Source: Escherichia coli phage NG_S8
Length of the DNA stretch: 64,000 bases
Sequence record: LC788711.1
Strand: one strand, 5' to 3'
The notes beneath the pieces were generated by a model that saw nothing but the letters and a program-made list of their open reading frames with translations, made no database searches and was not told the DNA's origin. Each line of letters begins with the position of its first letter. The stretch's first letter is position 1. Below, one piece after another: positions 26,017 through 52,141 of this stretch. The translations under genes were made by a program, and so were the position numbers.

Positions 26017-26091
26017 TGGTGCACCCCGTTGGTAACGATCCAACCTCTCAAGCTCTTCAGGCAAGCGCTAATCCATCTCAGCTAAAGGTGC
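26017..26091 (-). tRNA. divergent tRNA, possibly Phe (GAA)
   Basis: CCA, acceptor and D-arm pair; T-loop ATCGTTA atypical; loop CTGAAGA with weak stem. Confidence 0.4.
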
Positions 26092-29167: not shown

Positions 29168-30281
29168 TTTAGGTATTTTTAAGAACTCTTATAAAAGCTC
29201 TTAAAGATACCCGACGATAGGTAGGGTCAGCCCCCTCAGATTAAGCTCTGCAGCCCTTCCGTCAGACAATATCTTCCAGTTTAAGTCAGGGTGACTTTGT
29301 GGTTATGCCCTTCGTATGTGAAAGACTCGGTTAGGCTTAGGTCATGACTCCCAGCCTACTGCTGCTCCTCAACAGGAATTATCGCGTTTACCTGTACTAT
29401 TGTGCACCATTAGTGGCATCTCTCATGCCAGCATTTCCCACTCTCATAGTTACGCGGTCTGTTAGAATCGCACCTCCGATTTTCGATGCGAAGCTGGATG
29501 CCTAGTCTCAGGTTAAACGGGGCACACACTAGGCAGTGATCCCGAGTTCCGAGTTTGGTTGAGGCCGTCAGGTTTCCTCGTGGTTTAGCTGTTTCGCCCT
29601 AAACAATTCCTGCAACATTAAGGATGCAGGGGGATAGGTGGTACTCCAGCAGCGAGTGCTTATCCGGTATAAGCCCGAGTTATCCGATTCTTTCCGACCG
29701 TAGGATTCGAACCTACATCTTCCACCAGTTGCGGCTTGATATTACCGTTTATACTAGGACGGCAGTGTTATCGCATAAGTCAGTTCGACACCCCACATTG
29801 TGACTGGTAAGTCCCCCAATGAAGCCATCAGTCGTTAGACCTCCATCATTCATTAAAAACTTACGCTATTCACTATTCGATGGACAATCGCCGCATTGTG
29901 GTATACATACGTCTTGACTTGCATCCTAGACGGGTCAGCGTTGAAAGTTATATGGATTTCTCAAGCCCAACCTTCAGTCTTCTACCCCTGGGACACGCAC
30001 CGTACTTCACACTATGCCTAGCTCATGTTGAGAACCATCGTTTTGTATAAATTAGAGAAGAGTTTACGAGGTTTCGGGACAGCTCCCGAATTTTACAAGA
30101 CGTCTCGAATCTGACCGCAAAGTCGGCTCATTGGCCGGATATACCGGACTAGGCGTCATAAGTCTCACAGATGATCTTTCTTAACTCACCGACTCTATTC
30201 AGTGGAGTAGCTATCTCGGCATCCGAGAATCACTAAACTCACTCAGCGTAATCGGCTCGCTGTTCTCTAATTTATGAATCT
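29168..30281 (-). ncRNA. candidate large non-coding RNA / long ORF-free transcribed region
   Basis: about 1.1 kb with no ORF of 60 aa or more on either strand; promoter at 30282-30310; several local hairpins; embedded tRNA-like hairpin. Confidence 0.35.
29692..29767 (-). ncRNA. degenerate tRNA-like element (T-arm only)
   Basis: T-arm gtagg-attcgaa-cctac at 29700-29716; no complementary 5-prime acceptor strand. Confidence 0.3.
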
Positions 30282-43254: not shown

Positions 43255-43318
43255 TCCTATAGTGTACTTCGCTAACAGAGGATCAACAAAAAGATCTTGT
43301 TTATCAACTTACAAATAT

Positions 43319-43347
43319 ATTATACCAATATATACGGGAGAAAGCAA
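43319..43347 (-). promoter_or_regulatory. T5-type early promoter for phoH (divergent region)
   Basis: attata 43319-43324, aagcaa 43342-43347. Confidence 0.6.
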
Positions 43348-43539
43348 CTACAATTTTAAATAAGCCTATGATATTGCATTTAAATAAAAAATTTGCTTGC
43401 TTTTATTGGGAGATGTATGGTACTAGATAATCATTTTATATCGCGTACACGGGTGCGTGATTATACTATTTTTAGTAGAGGTTGGCAAATAAAATTTTTT
43501 GACTCAGATCATGTTACAGAACTTTATAGTAAAATATTG

Positions 43540-43568
43540 TTGACATCCGCCTTCGAATGAGTTATAAT
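43540..43568 (+). promoter_or_regulatory. sigma70 consensus promoter for nrdD
   Basis: TTGACA 43540-43545, 17-bp spacer, TATAAT 43563-43568; possible second promoter about 40 bp upstream. Confidence 0.65.
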
Positions 43569-43597
43569 AGTAGTCTTAGTTAGAGAAGGAGGGTATA

Positions 43598-47901: not shown

Positions 47902-48330
47902 ATGTTCAATAATATTTTCATGAAAGAGGTAAATCCTATGCTTCTCAACTTCTGGCGCTCTCTCCCTAATGGTATGTATAATGAAACCATCAATCTCCTT
48001 AAGATTTGGTGTGAGAATAACGATATCTTCCTGTCTTTTAAAGGCCCGCTAGAGGAAGCTCCGTGTATTGGAGTTAGTGTGGATTTAGGCGAGGGAGTAG
48101 AAGAGATTGTAGACTGGAAAGAACTTGATGAAATGGGTCTGGTTTTTGCCTTGAACCATAAGCTGTTTATGCCTGCAAATCACCGTCTTATTGTAAATTA
48201 TCGCACTGGTGAAGCTCCTGCTTTCCAGGTAAATGAACGTGAGGGCTGGTCATACTCGCCCGGGGAAGTAAATGAGGGGATTCAGAAACTTCGTCGTTTC
48301 GGGTATATGATCCCAGGTTTAACTGCTTAA
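47902..48330 (+). CDS. hypothetical protein, paralog A (142 aa)
   Basis: shares DW.EL..MGL..ALN...F.P and PGL pattern with next ORF. Confidence 0.5.
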   Translation: MFNNIFMKEVNPMLLNFWRSLPNGMYNETINLLKIWCENNDIFLSFKGPLEEAPCIGVSVDLGEGVEEIVDWKELDEMGLVFALNHKLFMPANHRLIVNYRTGEAPAFQVNEREGWSYSPGEVNEGIQKLRRFGYMIPGLTA

Positions 48331-48339
48331 GGAGGCAGA

Positions 48340-48735
48340 ATGGAACAAGTATTTTGGCGTCAGATAGATCCTAGTTTGGTAGAGCGTGCTGAGGGGCTCC
48401 TTGCACGTTGGTTGGGGGTTGACAAGGTTAGTGTAACATTTCCGTTTACTTCTGTAACAGACCCTAGTGTAGGAGTCTTTGTGGATGAAGATGAAGATGA
48501 TGGTTGGGAAGCTGACTGGAATGAATTGTCCAGCATGGGCTTGATTGTTGCCCTCAACTTCTCTATATTCCATCCACGTGGCTTAGCCATTACACGTGAC
48601 CCCGAAACTGGTGAATCCCCTTATCTTTTGCAAGTAGAAGATGATATTTGGGAGTACACCGAAGATATTCTCGAAGAAGCTAAAGGTCACTTAAATCGCA
48701 TTGGGATCTATGTCCCAGGCCTAAATGATGATTGA
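48340..48735 (+). CDS. hypothetical protein, paralog B (131 aa)
   Basis: tandem paralog of 47902-48330. Confidence 0.5.
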   Translation: MEQVFWRQIDPSLVERAEGLLARWLGVDKVSVTFPFTSVTDPSVGVFVDEDEDDGWEADWNELSSMGLIVALNFSIFHPRGLAITRDPETGESPYLLQVEDDIWEYTEDILEEAKGHLNRIGIYVPGLNDD

Positions 48736-48826
48736 TTTTCATTAGCCCAATCCTGATTACCGAGTCATTTTGGCTCGGTTTTCTCTGTGCTCAAAGACAC
48801 TGATAGCACCTTCGGAAAAATTTTAC

Positions 48827-48855
48827 TTGCAGGATGCTCAAAATCTTGATATAAT
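48827..48855 (+). promoter_or_regulatory. T5-type early promoter with long leader
   Basis: TTGCAG 48827-48832, TATAAT 48850-48855; no start codon for about 500 nt. Confidence 0.55.
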
Positions 48856-49351
48856 ATTTATATTGAATTGAGAGACATTAGTAAAAATTGATTTTGCTAA
48901 TTTTTCTTGTTTACAATCCGCAATACGGAACAGTTAGGCTGCCCCATTAAGGGTTGTTTTAACTATTACTAGTGTTTATACTGCATTAGTTAATTATCAA
49001 TTAAGTGATCTGCGTACCCTGAATTCGGAAAGGTAAATCCAAACCGTGCATATTTAGCTCGTTATATAGGCAGAGCTTTATATGGGGGTGCGAACGAAAA
49101 GAGCAGCGAATGGTGACACGTCCAGTAGCCACCTACCAATAGGATAGTGAGGGCAATCAGAATCGGCTTAGCGGCCAATGACCTAGGTTCTGATCTGGAT
49201 AAGAGTTAAGAGAGCGCAGCACTGAGGTATGATAACTTATTCATACTGCTTGATGGTGATTAATGTTTGTGTAAATGGTAGTAATAGTTGTTCTATTCTT
49301 TTGAATAGTCCTAAAGAAAGATATCCGAATAACCAACATAGGAGTATTGTT

Positions 49352-52141
49352 GTGTTCTCAATCCTACAAGGTCACGCAGGATTTTCCAGAGATAAAGCCA
49401 CTGGCATCTGGAAAGAGATCAAAGTGGAAGATTACACCTTTGCAAAGCGATTCTCTAAAGAGCATCCAGAAGGTAAACCAGCTTCCATGCCCTTCAAATT
49501 TGATGTACTTGAAGAACTTGACCCGCAAAACCTTGCTGAAATGTTACCTATCATGCGTCGTCTTACCAAAGACCCGCATATTGTAGCTATTCGGGGTAAG
49601 TGTCTAGCTCCAAAAGATAATGTGCGTCGTACCAGAGGAAACTTTAACGTATCCAATCCTAGTCATATTATTGCTATGGACGTGGATGGTATTGTAGATA
49701 CTGGTGGCTATGACAAGTTTAATCTTGTTGGCATGGCACGTCATATTATTAAGATGTTGAATAGTATTAGTGAGGATATGTTTCCTCTTGATGCAGGGTT
49801 TATTGCCCATGCATCGTCTTCGGCTGGATTAAAACCAGGTATCCGAATGCACTTAATGCTAGAATCTAATGTCAAGGTAACGCAGGGACAGTTAAAGTTC
49901 TTATTTACATCTATCAATGATAGTAGTAAGCAAAAGTACGGCTTTGATATTGCTGACTTAGCTTATTATTCTTCTGTTCAGCTTCACTATTTCGCAGATC
50001 CCTTATTTGATGATGGTATAGTCGATCCGTTTAAAGCGGAGAATAAACCACGTCTTGTGTATGTTAAGGGTTCGAAGGTGAATCTACCTAATAACCTAGT
50101 TGACTTTGAAACAACTAGAGGTGAGTTTAAAGAAGAATTCTACTCCTTACTTGACCAAATTAAAGGCAAGAAGGCTGCATCTGATAAAGTGGAAGAAACC
50201 ATCAGCGAACTAGAAGAAGCTGAGGATGGGGTGTACCTGCGTATTATTCCAAAACTTTACCACAGAGCGTTAGAAGATGGTGTTGACTTTACATGGTTAG
50301 AACGTGAGATTAAACCAGCTTTATCTGAATATATTGCAACTAAAGATAATAGTCGTAATATTCAAGATTACTTTAATAACGGTCGTAAGCAGGCTCTCAA
50401 AGCCTTTGTAAATAACTCCAAACGTGAGATTCCACCAAACTTAAAAGGTGTACCATTAAAACGTCTAGACACAGATTCTCCACCAGAAGTTCCATACCTG
50501 AAAATTAACATTGTACCACCAAAAGGACATTTAACATTTGTTAAGGCAAGTCTTGGTACGGGTAAAACTACAGCAGTAACTAAGTGGCTAGATGCAGGTG
50601 TTCTTCCAGGAAACTTTATTGCAATCACAAATACTAGGGCACTTGTATCTTCTAACGCGAAGAAATTCGGTGCTGGTCAGTATGATAAGTCAGTTGATAT
50701 GCTGAACTTCAAACGTGGTGCCATTGATCGTATGTCTTCAACTATTCACTCTATCCATAAGTTCAAGAGCTTTGTGGGTCAGATTGATACGATCTTTATT
50801 GATGAATGTGACGCAGTAATGAATGATCTGTTATTCGCTCCGGTTGTTAAAAACCGTCGTGAATGTATTCAGGTTCTTCGTGATATCCTTATTACTGCTA
50901 AAACTGTTATCTTATCCGATGGTGATATCAGTGCAGAAACGATTGAAGCCTATGGTTCTTTGATTGATTTTGATAAACCAGTCGCATTTTATAATCACCA
51001 CCGTAAAATGCTGGCGAAAGCTCATGCTTATGAATTCCCTGATGAATCCAGTATTTGGGTTGCACTTCAAACATCTTTAGAGATGGGGGAGAAATCAATC
51101 CTAGTATCTGACTGTGGCCCGGATGAACTGAATGAGAAGGGAATGGCATTACGTCGTAATACTGGTGCGTTAGTTAAAGAAATTCACTCAAACTCTACGT
51201 CTGATGTAGATATCCGACGTATTCTGGATTATACAACTAATGAGCTAATTGATCAACAGATTGATTGTTTATTATGTAGTCCATCTGTAACGAGTGGTGT
51301 TGACTTTAACTATTTTGATAACGTATTCGTAATCACTAGAACCTCAAACCAAGCGCCAAACATGCGTTTTCAAGCAATCAGGCGCGACCGTGGTGCTCAG
51401 AACATTTATTATTTTATTGATAAATCTACGAGTGGATTTTCTGCGGGTTCCGAGCAATATAATATTGACGAAGGTTGGATTGAGTTAGCCCAACAACTGT
51501 ACGCACGTCGTCGTGAGCTGGAATCTAGAAACTATACTAGTACTTTGCGTTATTATCTGCTTGATCAGGGTGCAACTATCGATATTTTCAGCGAAAGCTG
51601 GGGAACTATCGAAGGTGCAGGCAAAGAGTATACAGAAGAGCGAATCAAAGCTATTTTGCACTCAACTCCTGAATATTGTGCACCACGTCATGCAGATGCC
51701 TATGAAGCCAAGTTACTTCTGGTTCGCTATTATCATCTGGATTCTATTAAAGATGTAACAGTGGAACACGTTGAACAGTATATCAAGGATAAACCAAACG
51801 ATAGAGCTGCATTCTTCCATAAGATGCACGACATGTTCTGGGAAGATATTAAAAAGTGTTCAAACGTAACAATCAAACCGTTTATCGAAGCTCTTAAGAA
51901 TAAGAAGAAGGATTTCTTCCTTAAGACAGGTCAGAGCGCTAACCCAAAATATGCTCGTATGTATCTTGGCATGATGGGTATCGGTAAAGATCTGGATACG
52001 GAAAAGATTGTGGACTGGTACAGAACTTACTGTAAGATCGAATGTATGCCGATTCCAGTTAAGTTTATGACAGATGAAGAACGTCAGATGCATGAGGAAG
52101 CTCTTGCTGAATTGGGGGCTAGAAATGACAGCGAAGAATAA
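49352..52141 (+). CDS. SF2 helicase-like replication origin-binding-type protein (about 929 aa, GTG start)
   Basis: Walker A SLGTGKTT, Walker B IFIDECDAV; AGGAG RBS before GTG 49352; track ORF extends to 49229. Confidence 0.7.
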   Translation: MFSILQGHAGFSRDKATGIWKEIKVEDYTFAKRFSKEHPEGKPASMPFKFDVLEELDPQNLAEMLPIMRRLTKDPHIVAIRGKCLAPKDNVRRTRGNFNVSNPSHIIAMDVDGIVDTGGYDKFNLVGMARHIIKMLNSISEDMFPLDAGFIAHASSSAGLKPGIRMHLMLESNVKVTQGQLKFLFTSINDSSKQKYGFDIADLAYYSSVQLHYFADPLFDDGIVDPFKAENKPRLVYVKGSKVNLPNNLVDFETTRGEFKEEFYSLLDQIKGKKAASDKVEETISELEEAEDGVYLRIIPKLYHRALEDGVDFTWLEREIKPALSEYIATKDNSRNIQDYFNNGRKQALKAFVNNSKREIPPNLKGVPLKRLDTDSPPEVPYLKINIVPPKGHLTFVKASLGTGKTTAVTKWLDAGVLPGNFIAITNTRALVSSNAKKFGAGQYDKSVDMLNFKRGAIDRMSSTIHSIHKFKSFVGQIDTIFIDECDAVMNDLLFAPVVKNRRECIQVLRDILITAKTVILSDGDISAETIEAYGSLIDFDKPVAFYNHHRKMLAKAHAYEFPDESSIWVALQTSLEMGEKSILVSDCGPDELNEKGMALRRNTGALVKEIHSNSTSDVDIRRILDYTTNELIDQQIDCLLCSPSVTSGVDFNYFDNVFVITRTSNQAPNMRFQAIRRDRGAQNIYYFIDKSTSGFSAGSEQYNIDEGWIELAQQLYARRRELESRNYTSTLRYYLLDQGATIDIFSESWGTIEGAGKEYTEERIKAILHSTPEYCAPRHADAYEAKLLLVRYYHLDSIKDVTVEHVEQYIKDKPNDRAAFFHKMHDMFWEDIKKCSNVTIKPFIEALKNKKKDFFLKTGQSANPKYARMYLGMMGIGKDLDTEKIVDWYRTYCKIECMPIPVKFMTDEERQMHEEALAELGARNDSEE

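What the first reader, a model, noticed from the sequence alone, without database searches (positions are those of the whole stretch)
48736..49351. 600-bp non-coding leader upstream of the origin-binding-type helicase: possible origin or regulatory RNA
Between 48735 and the AGGAG-GTG start at 49352 there is no credible ORF. A good promoter at 48827-48855 with the conserved T5 leader motif starts transcription about 500 nt before the helicase gene, and a second promoter-like element lies near 48888-48917. The downstream gene resembles herpesvirus-type origin-binding SF2 helicases, so this leader could contain a replication origin or a cis-regulatory RNA.
Basis: inference. Interest (0 to 1): 0.5.

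Follow-up and report, generated by a model that had tools for sequence, protein, structure and literature searches.

The report
Large structured RNA before T5 helicase
The 600-base gap in front of the phage T5-type replication helicase gene D2 is not empty spacer: it is transcribed from its own promoter into a large folded RNA, conserved across T5-like phages and absent from the RNA family library, whose function is still unknown.

Summary
Window 48736-49351 has no credible ORF. It contains a terminator, a T5 early-type promoter and a ~490-nt leader that ends at the conserved GTG start (49352) of the D2 "origin-binding" helicase.

The leader is a structured RNA. A long AU-rich stem (P1, 48961-49015 with 49248-49289) closes a 210-nt multi-helix core built around an invariant CU[UAGC]GG hairpin.

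- T5-like enterobacterial phages carry at least three sequence-unrelated core versions (A, B, C) of the same length. More distant relatives (Klebsiella, Pectobacterium, Providencia and Aeromonas phages) keep the architecture.
- Compensatory changes support P1, P2, P2' and P6 (12 and 7 double-sided covariations within types; 10 of 13 pairs in each of two cross-lineage alignments).
- 14-17% G-U pairs make the fold specific to the strand that is sense to D2.
- Rfam 15 has no match.
- No iterons were found, and the GC-skew switch lies 5 kb away, so the origin reading is not supported, though it is not excluded.

Most likely this is a cis-acting leader that controls D2 expression or mRNA processing. 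Rivals are a released stable ncRNA and an RNA-dependent origin. It is a new RNA family, and T5 genetics can test these readings.

The parts
48759..48786 (+). Intrinsic terminator that ends the upstream operon (hairpin ACCGAGTCA-TTT-TGGCTCGGT followed by a T run)
   Evidence: Annotated as a terminator at the equivalent T5 position. Analogous hairpin plus T run in Sugarland-like, L059, My1 and PR1-like loci.
48815..48861 (+). T5 early-type sigma-70 promoter: A/T-rich upstream tract, -35 TTGCAG 48827-32, extended -10 TGaTATAAT 48847-55. The predicted start is near 48862.
   Evidence: Read from the sequence. Annotated as a promoter in T5 and S114. Conserved in all lineages. In phages carrying the HNH insertion it is replaced by a different promoter while the transcript is kept. 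The start site is inferred by analogy with T5 PN25, from memory.
48870..48908 (+). P0: 5'-proximal 16-bp hairpin of the leader (GAGAGA-C-AUUAGUAAAA / UUUUGCUAAU-U-UUUCUU). It contains the 'second promoter' pattern 48888-48917.
   Evidence: MFE and alifold predictions. Compensatory differences in L059 (UUAGACAAG/UUUGUCUAA) read. Nearly invariant in types A, B and C.
48909..48960 (+). Ultra-conserved 5' segment with small hairpins (CCG-CAAUA-CGG 48918-28; CAGU-UAG-GCUG 48931-41). The motif AUACRGAACAGUnnGGCUGC is shared with My1, L059 and Sugarland.
   Evidence: Divergence is 0.6% within types and 4% between types, against 6-12% in flanking genes. Alignments.
48961..49015 (+). 5' strand of the long AU-rich closing stem P1, ending in the P2 5' strand CUGCGU (49010-15)
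   Evidence: (I1, I4). P1 duplex z = -6.8 against shuffled arms. AACUAUUAC/GUAAUAGUU changes to AACUGUUAC/GUAACAGUU.
49016..49213 (+). Variable multi-helix core. With the P2 strands it spans 210 nt here and 206-225 nt in all lineages. Its sequence is unrelated between types A, B and C.
   Evidence: Between-type divergence is 47-56% against 2-10% within types. Compensatory pairs within each type.
49156..49194 (+). P6 helix enclosing the invariant mini-hairpin GGCU[UAGC]GGCC (49165-76; CUUAGCGG 49167-74)
   Evidence: Curated 11-lineage alignment: 99.2% of cells paired, 10 of 13 pairs changed on both sides. The covariance model hits once in the window, only in D2 leaders and only on the + strand, and gives no hit in 605 kb of unrelated DNA.
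49214..49247 (+). P2 3' strand GCGCAG (49214-19) and the P2' hairpin GGUAUGA-UAACUUAU-UCAUACU (49226-47)
   Evidence: Curated 10-sequence alignment: 100% paired, 10 of 13 pairs changed on both sides, slid controls 1-2.
49248..49289 (+). 3' strand of P1
49293..49320 (+). P7 hairpin CUAUUC-UUUU-GAAUAG (49293-49308) and the invariant tail UCCUAAAGAAA
   Evidence: Invariant in types A, B and C. Covarying counterparts CUAUC/GAUAG (Sugarland), CUUUC/GAAAG (L059) and UUCUUU/AAAGAA (PR1) read.
49335..49356 (+). Hairpin AACAUAG / UUGUGUU that holds the Shine-Dalgarno AGGAG (49340-44) and the GTG start (49352-54) of D2
   Evidence: alifold. The U/C polymorphism at 49339 keeps pairing with G (U-G to C-G).
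49352..52141 (+). D2 / T5.108 homologue: 929-aa putative replication initiator helicase, the gene served by the leader
   Evidence: Wong et al. 2013, PMC3632103.

Best explanation
Shown: the interval is the template of a ~490-nt 5' leader RNA, insulated by an upstream terminator and driven by its own T5 early promoter. The RNA adopts a conserved fold on the strand that is sense to D2:
- a 5' hairpin (P0);
- an ultra-conserved 50-nt segment;
- a ~330-nt domain in which a long AU-rich duplex (P1) closes a three-way junction of P2 (leading into a 210-nt core with the invariant CU[UAGC]GG hairpin in P6) and hairpin P2';
- hairpin P7;
- a hairpin holding the SD and GTG start of D2.

Inferred: the RNA acts in cis on the D2 mRNA. 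It would set how much initiator helicase is made, either through endonucleolytic processing of the P1 duplex or the A/U-rich tail after P7, and/or through binding of a phage protein that alters access to the SD/GTG hairpin. D2 itself is the most plausible partner, because leader type co-segregates with the N-terminal part of D2. The fold is what selection preserves; the core sequence drifts at a near-neutral rate.
For: Transcription unit:
- The terminator, promoter, long ORF-free leader and D2 lie in the same order in T5, Epseptimavirus, Sugarland-like, L059, My1 and PR1/PSTCR5 phages, and long gaps precede D2 in Vibrio and Aeromonas phages.
- Where an HNH gene is inserted, the promoter is swapped but the transcript from GAGAGACAUUAG onward is untouched.

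Structure:
- Within type A (15 distinct sequences) there are 136 pairs, 12 with changes on both sides and 16 on one side, with 99.7% canonical cells. Type B (12 sequences) has 144 pairs, 7 and 12 such changes, and 99.1% canonical cells. Slid controls give 0-2.
- Cross-lineage P6 plus mini-hairpin: 99.2% paired, covariation score 0.85 against 0.20 for shuffles.
- Cross-lineage P2 plus P2': 100% paired, 0.69 against 0.26.
- P1 duplex z-scores are -5.7 to -6.9 in four unrelated sequence versions and -3.5 in My1.
- Core length is 206-225 nt in every lineage.

Strand:
- 14-17% of paired cells are G-U and about 0.2% are A-C.
- The same pairs mirrored onto the other strand are only 82-86% canonical.
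- One-sided changes are tolerated on the + strand only.

Link to D2:
- This is the only promoter for D2 in T5-type phages, with no terminator between the domain and the gene.
- The SD and GTG lie in a hairpin that tolerates a U-G to C-G change.
- Leader type co-segregates with D2 codons 1-560. Of 29 fixed amino-acid differences, 18 fall in aa 361-418. Upstream genes show no such association.
- In Vibrio 70E34-1a, two terminator-like hairpins lie between the leader and D2, an attenuator-like layout.

Not coding. Not a known RNA family.
Against: - No expression platform is demonstrated. T5-type leaders have no terminator after the domain, and the SD hairpin is short.
- A 330-nt domain is far larger than known phage translational operators.
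- Whole-leader folding energy is not exceptional in Sugarland, My1 or PR1 (z = +0.4 to -1.0; coding controls reach -2.4). P1 is not significant in Sugarland and PR1 with the arms I chose.
- The association with the D2 N-terminus could be plain linkage within one introgressed block.
- The two cross-lineage alignments were hand-curated, and the within-type structures were predicted on the same alignments that were then scored.
- No transcript ends, processing sites or protein binding are known; I found no T5 transcript map covering this region in the papers I could search.
Confidence: 0.5

Rival explanations
1. Replication origin. The AT-rich promoter/P0 stretch and the AT-rich P1 arms would act as an unwinding region next to the initiator gene. 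D2 would recognise the core as + strand ssDNA hairpins or as an RNA/R-loop made from the leader promoter, as at T7, T4 or ColE1 promoter-dependent origins. Leader type and the D2 N-terminus would form a specificity pair like lambdoid O/ori.
For: - D2 is the putative T5 initiator (PMC3632103). It matches Herpes_ori_bp and a plasmid Rep family.
- The element is always adjacent to D2.
- The lowest-GC 100-nt window (0.24 at 48811) is in the bottom 0.3% of the window.
- The core co-segregates with D2 aa 1-560, with a sharp hot spot at aa 361-418.
- The only GTTCGCAC in 64 kb lies in the core at 49088-95. This is the core of the HSV UL9 box as I recall it, not checked against a source.
- The locus lies near 48.5% of the T5 genome. 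As I recall it, old electron microscopy placed early initiation near the centre; that paper could not be read.
Against: - No iterons or repeated boxes. GTTCGCAC is single-copy and absent from type B.
- The GC-skew switch is at 43.3-43.6 kb and coincides with the gene-orientation flip.
- The conserved property is a multi-helix, strand-specific fold rich in G-U pairs, which is expected for RNA rather than duplex DNA.
- The promoter DNA can be swapped without touching the transcript.
- Recombitron strand bias suggests dominant unidirectional replication from one genome end (PMC10055335).
Confidence: 0.2
2. Stand-alone functional RNA. The folded domain would be released from the 5' UTR, for example by RNase III in P1 or RNase E in the A/U-rich tail after P7. 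It would then act in trans as a stable ncRNA (decoy, scaffold or cofactor for a host or phage protein). D2 would simply share the promoter.
For: - The domain is bracketed by a 5' hairpin (P0) and a 3' hairpin (P7), as stable sRNAs are.
- The long near-continuous P1 duplex resembles processing stems.
- In Vibrio 70E34-1a, and by eye in Aeromonas TS3, terminator-like hairpins end the structured region before D2.
- Its size and complexity exceed those of typical cis operators.
- The invariant CU[UAGC]GG loop suggests a conserved binding partner.
Against: - It is strictly linked in position and orientation to D2 in every lineage.
- No terminator follows the domain in T5-type phages.
- The core sequence is hypervariable, which argues against base-pairing with fixed targets.
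- No transcript data are available.
Confidence: 0.22
3. Non-functional DNA: a decayed gene, a relic of a mobile element with terminal inverted repeats (the P1 arms), or recombination spacer next to homing-endonuclease sites.
For: - HNH genes and a ~97-nt optional insert occur in or next to the region.
- The core sequence diverges at roughly the rate expected for unconstrained DNA.
- The P1 arms are inverted repeats.
Against: - Length is held at 509-513 nt and core length at 206-225 nt across lineages.
- Dozens of compensatory changes are seen.
- The flanks are ultra-conserved, at 0.6% divergence against 6-12% in genes.
- The element is present in every lineage from Tequintavirus to Myunavirus and PR1-like phages.
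- There is a single copy per genome.
Confidence: 0.03
4. Protein-coding: an N-terminal extension of D2 from ATG 49229, or the small ORFs annotated in some records (48770-48871 on +, 49001-49132 on -).
For: These are annotated this way in S114, Sw2, PMBT31 and many other records.
Against: - The in-frame ATG is present in only 5 of 29 distinct leaders, and frameshifting indels occur in T5 and TrudiGerster.
- The small ORFs span the terminator and promoter or lie in the hypervariable core, and are not conserved in type B.
- The AGGAG-7-GTG start is invariant.
Confidence: 0.02

Closest known systems
Structured leaders of replication-initiator mRNAs in plasmids (R1 repA/CopT; IncB and IncI-alpha repZ pseudoknot). 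Comparison from general knowledge.
   Same: A folded 5' leader sits directly upstream of the replication initiator gene and is transcribed with it. The start region lies in a hairpin. The presumed job is to set the initiator dose.
   Different: The plasmid leaders are shorter and are controlled by an antisense RNA. No antisense promoter was found here. This leader has a 330-nt closed domain, and there is no sequence or Rfam similarity.
Phage T4 translational operators of replication genes (gene 32 pseudoknot, gene 43 hairpin). From general knowledge.
   Same: A replication protein could bind its own mRNA leader. The co-segregation of leader type with the D2 N-terminal part fits that idea.
   Different: The T4 operators are tens of nucleotides long, while this one is about 430 nt with many helices. 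Binding by D2 is untested.
RNase III processing stems (lambda N leader, T7 early R sites, rRNA precursor stems). From general knowledge.
   Same: P1 is a long, mostly continuous duplex formed by sequences about 230 nt apart. It encloses a folded RNA, like the stems that flank 16S and 23S rRNA.
   Different: Cleavage has not been shown. P1 carries bulges and 10-20% G-U pairs. No RNase III reactivity determinants were tested.
Large structured ncRNAs often found in phages (GOLLD, ROOL, HEARO, raiA-type classes in Rfam)
   Same: The size class is similar (hundreds of nt), the element is phage-borne, the multi-helix fold is supported by covariation, and the function is unknown.
   Different: There is no match to any of the 4227 Rfam 15 models even at E <= 10. 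This element is always a 5' leader of one particular gene, and its core exists in several non-alignable versions.
Promoter-dependent and initiator-adjacent origins (T7 primary origin, T4 ori(uvsY)/ori(34), ColE1 RNA II, HSV oriS with UL9). From general knowledge.
   Same: A strong promoter plus an AT-rich stretch lies next to replication genes, with an initiator-like helicase downstream and one UL9-box-like octamer.
   Different: There is no pair of inverted boxes around an AT spacer and there are no iterons. The conserved feature is RNA-type pairing. No mapping data place a T5 origin here.

Membership tests
Any Rfam 15 family (including riboswitches, 6S, tmRNA, RNase P, SRP, Y RNA/YrlA, GOLLD, ROOL, HEARO) | Covariance-model match at or near the family's gathering score | tested here: not met
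   At gathering thresholds the whole window gives only tRNAs. An E <= 10 scan of 48650-49450 gives only two chance-level hits over the terminator. An E <= 1 scan of seven related loci gives nothing in the leaders.
Conserved structured RNA (general criterion) | Compensatory base changes that maintain helices across homologues, exceeding controls | tested here: met
   12 and 7 double-sided covarying pairs within types, and 10 of 13 pairs in each of two cross-lineage alignments. Shuffled and slid controls are far lower.
Conserved structured RNA (general criterion) | Strand specificity (G-U tolerated, A-C avoided) on the transcribed strand | tested here: met
   283 and 301 G-U cells against 2 and 6 A-C cells. 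The mirrored structure is only 82-86% canonical.
Transcription-terminating riboswitch or attenuator | Intrinsic terminator between the sensor domain and the regulated ORF | tested here: not met
   No terminator-like site lies between 48862 and 49352. Terminator-like hairpins do occur at this position in Vibrio 70E34-1a, so the layout may differ between lineages.
Riboswitch (ligand-sensing aptamer) | Highly conserved unpaired core nucleotides across all lineages | tested here: inconclusive
   Only CUUAGCGG and a few short islands are invariant. Most of the core cannot be aligned between types.
Iteron-type replication origin | Several direct repeats (initiator binding sites) | tested here: not met
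   only two-copy repeats of 18 nt or less at 75-91% identity, which is chance level.
Iteron-type or DUE-containing origin | AT-rich unwinding element | tested here: inconclusive
   GC is 0.24 at 48811-48910, in the lowest 0.3% of windows, but this stretch is the promoter plus P0, and T5 promoters are AT-rich anyway.
HSV-type origin (oriS/oriL) for a UL9-like protein | Two inverted UL9 boxes flanking an AT-rich spacer | tested here: not met
   There is a single GTTCGCAC at 49088-95 on the - strand with no partner, and it is absent from type B. The box sequence was recalled from memory.
Replication origin (any type) | Replication initiates here in vivo (marker frequency, nascent strands, autonomous replication) | not testable with these tools
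   There is only indirect evidence. The GC-skew switch lies elsewhere, and PMC10055335 reports an end-biased replication direction.
RNase III substrate | About 20 bp or more of near-continuous dsRNA | tested here: met
   P1 has 37-59 long-range pairs, including a 12-bp perfect run at 48961-72 with 49278-89.
RNase III substrate | Cleavage in vivo or in vitro | not testable with these tools
   No data.
Autogenous translational operator | The encoded protein binds its own leader and represses translation | not testable with these tools
   The only evidence is co-segregation of leader type with D2 aa 1-560, which linkage could also explain.

The most novel reading that the evidence does not exclude
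The folded leader RNA is a working part of T5 replication initiation. It would be a lineage-specific RNA partner of the D2 helicase, marking or priming the origin through an R-loop or RNA-protein complex, and it would co-evolve with the D2 N-terminal region. That would make it an RNA-defined origin/initiator module in a classical model phage.
Probability: 0.12. Interest if true: 0.85.

Novelty: new variant of a known kind. Interest (0 to 1): 0.62.

Why it matters
T5 is a classical model phage, yet its replication origin and the control of its initiator helicase D2 are still unknown.

A ~430-nt RNA fold that is preserved across the family while its sequence turns over almost completely is one of the few large structured phage RNAs found outside the known families. 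It sits exactly where initiator dosage or origin function would be controlled.

It also gives annotators a reason to stop extending the D2 ORF and calling small ORFs in this gap. The naturally occurring A, B and C core versions form a ready-made swap experiment to test whether the RNA and D2 recognise each other.

Tried and rejected
- **Rfam:** gathering and permissive scans of the window and seven related loci gave nothing.
- **tRNA/tmRNA scan:** nothing in the leader.
- **Iterons and tandem repeats:** none.
- **Whole-leader folding z-scores:** uneven across lineages and overlapping coding controls, so not used as main evidence.
- **GC skew as an origin marker:** the switch follows gene orientation at 43.3-43.6 kb.
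- **Second promoter at 48888-48917:** rejected as a conserved promoter because its -10 is not kept outside close relatives and it lies inside hairpin P0.
- **"L014/L036 lack the main promoter":** rejected. They carry the ~97-nt insert also seen in phiR201, with the promoter further upstream.
- **MAFFT alignment of types A and B in the core:** unreliable. It was replaced by within-type alignments and two hand-curated, N-padded helix alignments. mafft-qinsi was unavailable.
- **Genome-collection scan with a 14-base motif:** only chance hits, none with the P6 module.
- **Metagenome scan:** only type B copies.
- **D2 N-terminal domain:** no Pfam or NCBIfam hit. The homologue search returned two fragments. 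The single-sequence AlphaFold model had pLDDT 35.6 and was unusable, so no fold search was run.
- **Literature:** no paper found on this leader or a mapped T5 origin. The 1976 electron-microscopy paper is not held.
- **Possible alternative pairing of the P7 5' strand with the SD:** considered by eye only and left as a weak idea.
Full report
**Source and setting.** The window is a T5-like phage, about 100% identical over this region to Salmonella phage SH9 and other Epseptimavirus genomes. The finding covers the gap between a DUF7415 gene (48340-48735) and the 929-aa homologue of T5.108. Wong et al. 2013 studied this protein as the bipolar helicase D2 and proposed it as a replication initiator (PMC3632103). 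It matches Pfam Herpes_ori_bp (5e-5) and UL9-type origin-binding proteins in the PDB (weakly). Its helicase half matches NCBIfam CyRepA1 plasmid replication protein (4.6e-36, below the curated cutoff).

**Checking the observation.**
- ORFs: only ORFs of 43 aa or less lie between 48735 and 49352.
- D2 start: many GenBank records start D2 at ATG 49229 or call tiny ORFs in the gap. Among 29 distinct leaders the in-frame ATG is present in only five. T5 has a 1-nt indel and TrudiGerster a 2-nt indel, and type B leaders differ entirely there. AGGAG-7-GTG is invariant, and the T5 reference uses that start.
- Terminator: an intrinsic terminator (48759-48786) ends the upstream operon.
- Promoter: TTGCAG-17-TGaTATAAT at 48827-48855 is real in sequence and is annotated in T5 and S114. 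It carries the early-class ATATT element described by Klimuk et al. (PMC7472727) and is followed by the T5 'UUGAGAGA' start region.
- Second promoter: the pattern at 48888-48917 exists. It lies in a conserved RNA hairpin and its -10 is not kept in more distant relatives.
- Size: at 616 nt this is the longest ORF-free gap in the window outside the tRNA cluster and the window's left edge (1-670).

**What the region is.** T5 and the window are 95% identical here, and the leader is more conserved than third codon positions nearby. Wider sampling (28 IMG/VR loci plus GenBank records) shows two, then three, versions of the leader within Tequintavirus and Epseptimavirus:
- type A (window, T5, TrudiGerster);
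- type B (chee24, STWB21, 8sent1748);
- type C (phiR201).

These share almost invariant flanks: the promoter to 48968, and 49279-49320. Between the flanks lies a central ~310 nt that cannot be aligned between types. Even so, total length stays at 509-513 nt from near the -10 element to 6 nt past the GTG.

A sliding comparison quantifies the pattern:

| Segment | Divergence within type | Divergence between types A and B |
|---|---|---|
| 5' leader | 0.6% | 4% |
| Core | 2-10% | 47-56% |
| Flanking genes | ~6-12% | about the same as within type |

More distant phages have the same layout of terminator, T5-type promoter and 480-600-nt ORF-free leader before D2. These are two Sugarland-like Klebsiella phages, the uncultured contig L059, Pectobacterium phage My1, and Providencia PR1/PSTCR5-like phages, with D2 identity of 78-64%. 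They share short islands with the window, notably AUACRGAACAGUnnGGCUGC and the invariant CUUAGCGG. Vibrio and Aeromonas T5-like phages have 700-1600-nt gaps before D2.

**Evidence for an RNA fold.** Independent folding of each lineage gives the same architecture:
- a 5' hairpin P0;
- small hairpins in the ultra-conserved segment;
- a long AU-rich stem P1 with 37-59 long-range pairs;
- a 6-bp helix P2 closing a 206-225-nt core;
- a hairpin P2' directly after the P2 3' strand;
- a helix P6 around a CU[UAGC]GG mini-hairpin;
- a hairpin P7 after P1;
- a hairpin containing the SD and start codon.

P2 reads CUGCGU/GCGCAG, CUGUGU/GCACAG, CUACAU/GUGUAG, CCAUAU/GUAUGG, CUAGAA/UUCUAG, CUACAC/GUGUAG and CUAGUU/GACUAG in different phages.

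Objective counts:
- Within type A (15 distinct sequences), the RNAalifold consensus has 136 pairs: 12 changed on both sides, 16 on one side, 99.7% of cells canonical.
- Within type B (12 sequences), it has 144 pairs: 7 changed on both sides, 12 on one side, 99.1% canonical.
- Sliding the 3' partners by 1-3 columns gives 0-2 double changes and 33-49% canonical cells.
- In a hand-curated alignment of P6 plus the mini-hairpin from 11 lineages, 99.2% of cells pair and 10 of 13 pairs change on both sides. The covariation score is 0.85 against 0.20 for shuffles and 0.20 or less for slid partners.
- A similar alignment of P2 plus P2' from 10 sequences gives 100% pairing, 10 of 13 pairs changed, and 0.69 against 0.26.
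- Duplex energy between the P1 arms, compared with shuffled 3' arms, gives z = -6.8 (A), -5.9 (TrudiGerster), -5.7 (B), -6.9 (C), -6.2 (L059) and -3.5 (My1). It is only -1.3 for Sugarland and -1.0 for PR1.

Caveats:
- Whole-leader MFE z-scores are significant only in A, C and L059, are marginal in B, and overlap coding controls elsewhere. The case therefore rests on covariation, not thermodynamics.
- The curated alignments involve my choice of strands.
- The within-type structures were predicted on the alignments that were then scored.

**Strand and unit of selection.**
- In the + strand structure, 14-17% of paired cells are G-U and about 0.2% are A-C. Mirrored onto the other strand, only 82-86% of cells remain canonical. 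One-sided substitutions stay compatible in 16 and 12 pairs on the + strand but only 2 and 3 on the mirror. The selected fold is therefore on the strand that is sense to D2 and downstream of the promoter.
- In S132 and SP76 (8sent1748 has the same upstream HNH gene and promoter variant), an HNH homing-endonuclease gene is inserted between the terminator and the leader. It brings a different promoter, while the sequence from GAGAGACAUUAG onward is intact.
- In phiR201, L014 and L036, a ~97-nt hairpin insert flanked by TTTTTCTT sits between P0 and the next segment.

Both observations fit a transcript-level unit.

A covariance model of the P6 module finds exactly one hit in the 64-kb window (49156-49194, + strand) and one per related genome, always in the D2 leader. 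It finds none in 605 kb of unrelated bacterial DNA. Rfam 15 has no match at any threshold tried.

**Tests of the origin idea.**
- No iterons were found.
- The GC-skew sign change is at 43.3-43.6 kb, where gene orientation flips, about 5 kb upstream of the leader.
- The most AT-rich 100 nt (GC 0.24 at 48811) are in the lowest 0.3% of the window, but they are the promoter and P0.
- The only GTTCGCAC in the window lies in the core at 49088-95 on the - strand. This is the core of the HSV UL9 box as I recall it. It is single-copy and missing from type B, so I treat it as a curiosity.

In favour of some link with the initiator, leader type co-segregates with D2 codons 1 to about 560 (between-type 11-34% against within-type 4-9%) but not with upstream genes or the D2 C-terminal third. 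Of 29 fixed A/B amino-acid differences, 18 fall in aa 361-418, just before the Walker A motif. Type C has an A-like 5' core half and a B/Sugarland-like 3' half, and it carries the B-like version of that D2 segment. This could reflect co-adaptation or simple linkage within one introgressed block.

**Mechanism.** What is shown is a conserved, strand-specific RNA fold in the only transcript that can express D2 in T5-type phages. How it acts is inferred.
- I favour a cis role (confidence about 0.5). The leader would set D2 output through processing of the long P1 duplex or the A/U-rich tail after P7, and/or through a bound protein that changes access to the SD/GTG hairpin. D2 is the obvious candidate partner.
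- The tandem terminator-like hairpins between leader and D2 in Vibrio 70E34-1a, and a similar hairpin plus U6 seen by eye in Aeromonas TS3, are compatible with attenuation. They equally fit the main rival, a stable RNA released from the 5' UTR and acting in trans (about 0.22).
- An origin that works through this RNA or through + strand DNA hairpins remains possible (about 0.2).
- Junk DNA and coding explanations are effectively excluded.

**Comparison with known systems.**
- Functionally, the nearest analogues are the structured leaders of plasmid initiator mRNAs and the T4 autogenous operators. This element is several times larger and has no antisense partner in sight.
- In form, it resembles RNase III-bracketed RNAs and the large phage-associated ncRNAs (GOLLD, ROOL, HEARO), but it belongs to none of them.
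- It fails the defining tests for iteron-type and HSV-type origins.

I classify it as a new family within a known kind: a large structured leader or ncRNA. Its unusual features are the ~45-bp closing duplex, the non-alignable core versions of fixed length, and its strict association with the D2 initiator gene.

**Verdict.** The element is real, conserved and, as far as these tools and the searchable literature show, undescribed. Interest is 0.62.

Noticed in passing
window 49229-49351; 48770-48871 (+); 49001-49132 (-): Many GenBank T5-like records extend the D2 CDS by 41 codons to ATG 49229 and annotate tiny ORFs inside the leader. The ATG is present in only 5 of 29 distinct leaders, and the small ORFs overlap the terminator/promoter or the hypervariable core, so these look like annotation artefacts.
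   Followed up: yes
window 49088-49095 (- strand): This is the only GTTCGCAC in the 64-kb window. As I recall it, this is the core of the HSV UL9 origin-binding box. It lies inside the leader core of types A and C and is absent from type B. It is probably coincidence, but it is odd next to a UL9-like helicase gene.
   Followed up: partly
window 50432-50605 (D2 aa 361-418); loci L037-L067: A short hypervariable segment of D2 just before the Walker A motif holds 18 of the 29 amino-acid differences fixed between phages with type A and type B leaders. Association with leader type extends over D2 aa 1-560 and then stops abruptly.
   Followed up: partly
L076 340-930 (S132), L077 (SP76), L006 (8sent1748): A free-standing HNH homing-endonuclease gene is inserted between the upstream terminator and the leader. 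It brings a replacement promoter and leaves the leader transcript intact.
   Followed up: yes
L071 955-1050 (phiR201); also L014, L036: An optional ~97-nt insert flanked by a TTTTTCTT direct repeat sits between hairpin P0 and the conserved segment of the leader. It forms a hairpin itself (AUUUACGG...CCGUAAAU). It may be a small mobile or duplicated module.
   Followed up: partly
L075 1-1608 (Aeromonas phage vB_AdhS_TS3): A 1.6-kb stretch without annotated genes precedes D2. It contains a perfect 17-bp complementarity 620 nt apart (812-828 with 1449-1465), one clear CUUAGCGG hairpin plus two UUAGCGG-like sites, and a hairpin plus U6 before D2. This looks like a much enlarged version of the leader.
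   Followed up: partly
L074 1669-1716 (Vibrio phage 70E34-1a); L073 (Vibrio phage Luma): The Vibrio T5-like phages have ~700-nt gaps before D2, filled in GenBank with 30-55-aa 'hypothetical proteins'. 70E34-1a has two tandem terminator-like hairpins 85-130 nt before the D2 start. The P6 model does not hit these leaders.
   Followed up: partly
window 47902-48330 and 48340-48735: Two adjacent paralogous genes of the DUF7415 family lie directly upstream of the leader.
   Followed up: no
window 26020-26091 (-) and 29692-29763 (-): Rfam's tRNA model reports two extra tRNA-like sequences in the tRNA cluster that ARAGORN did not call. The second scores right at the gathering threshold.
   Followed up: no
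window 43255-43597: A divergent intergenic region where gene orientation flips from - to +. It coincides with the minimum of the cumulative GC skew in the window.
   Followed up: partly
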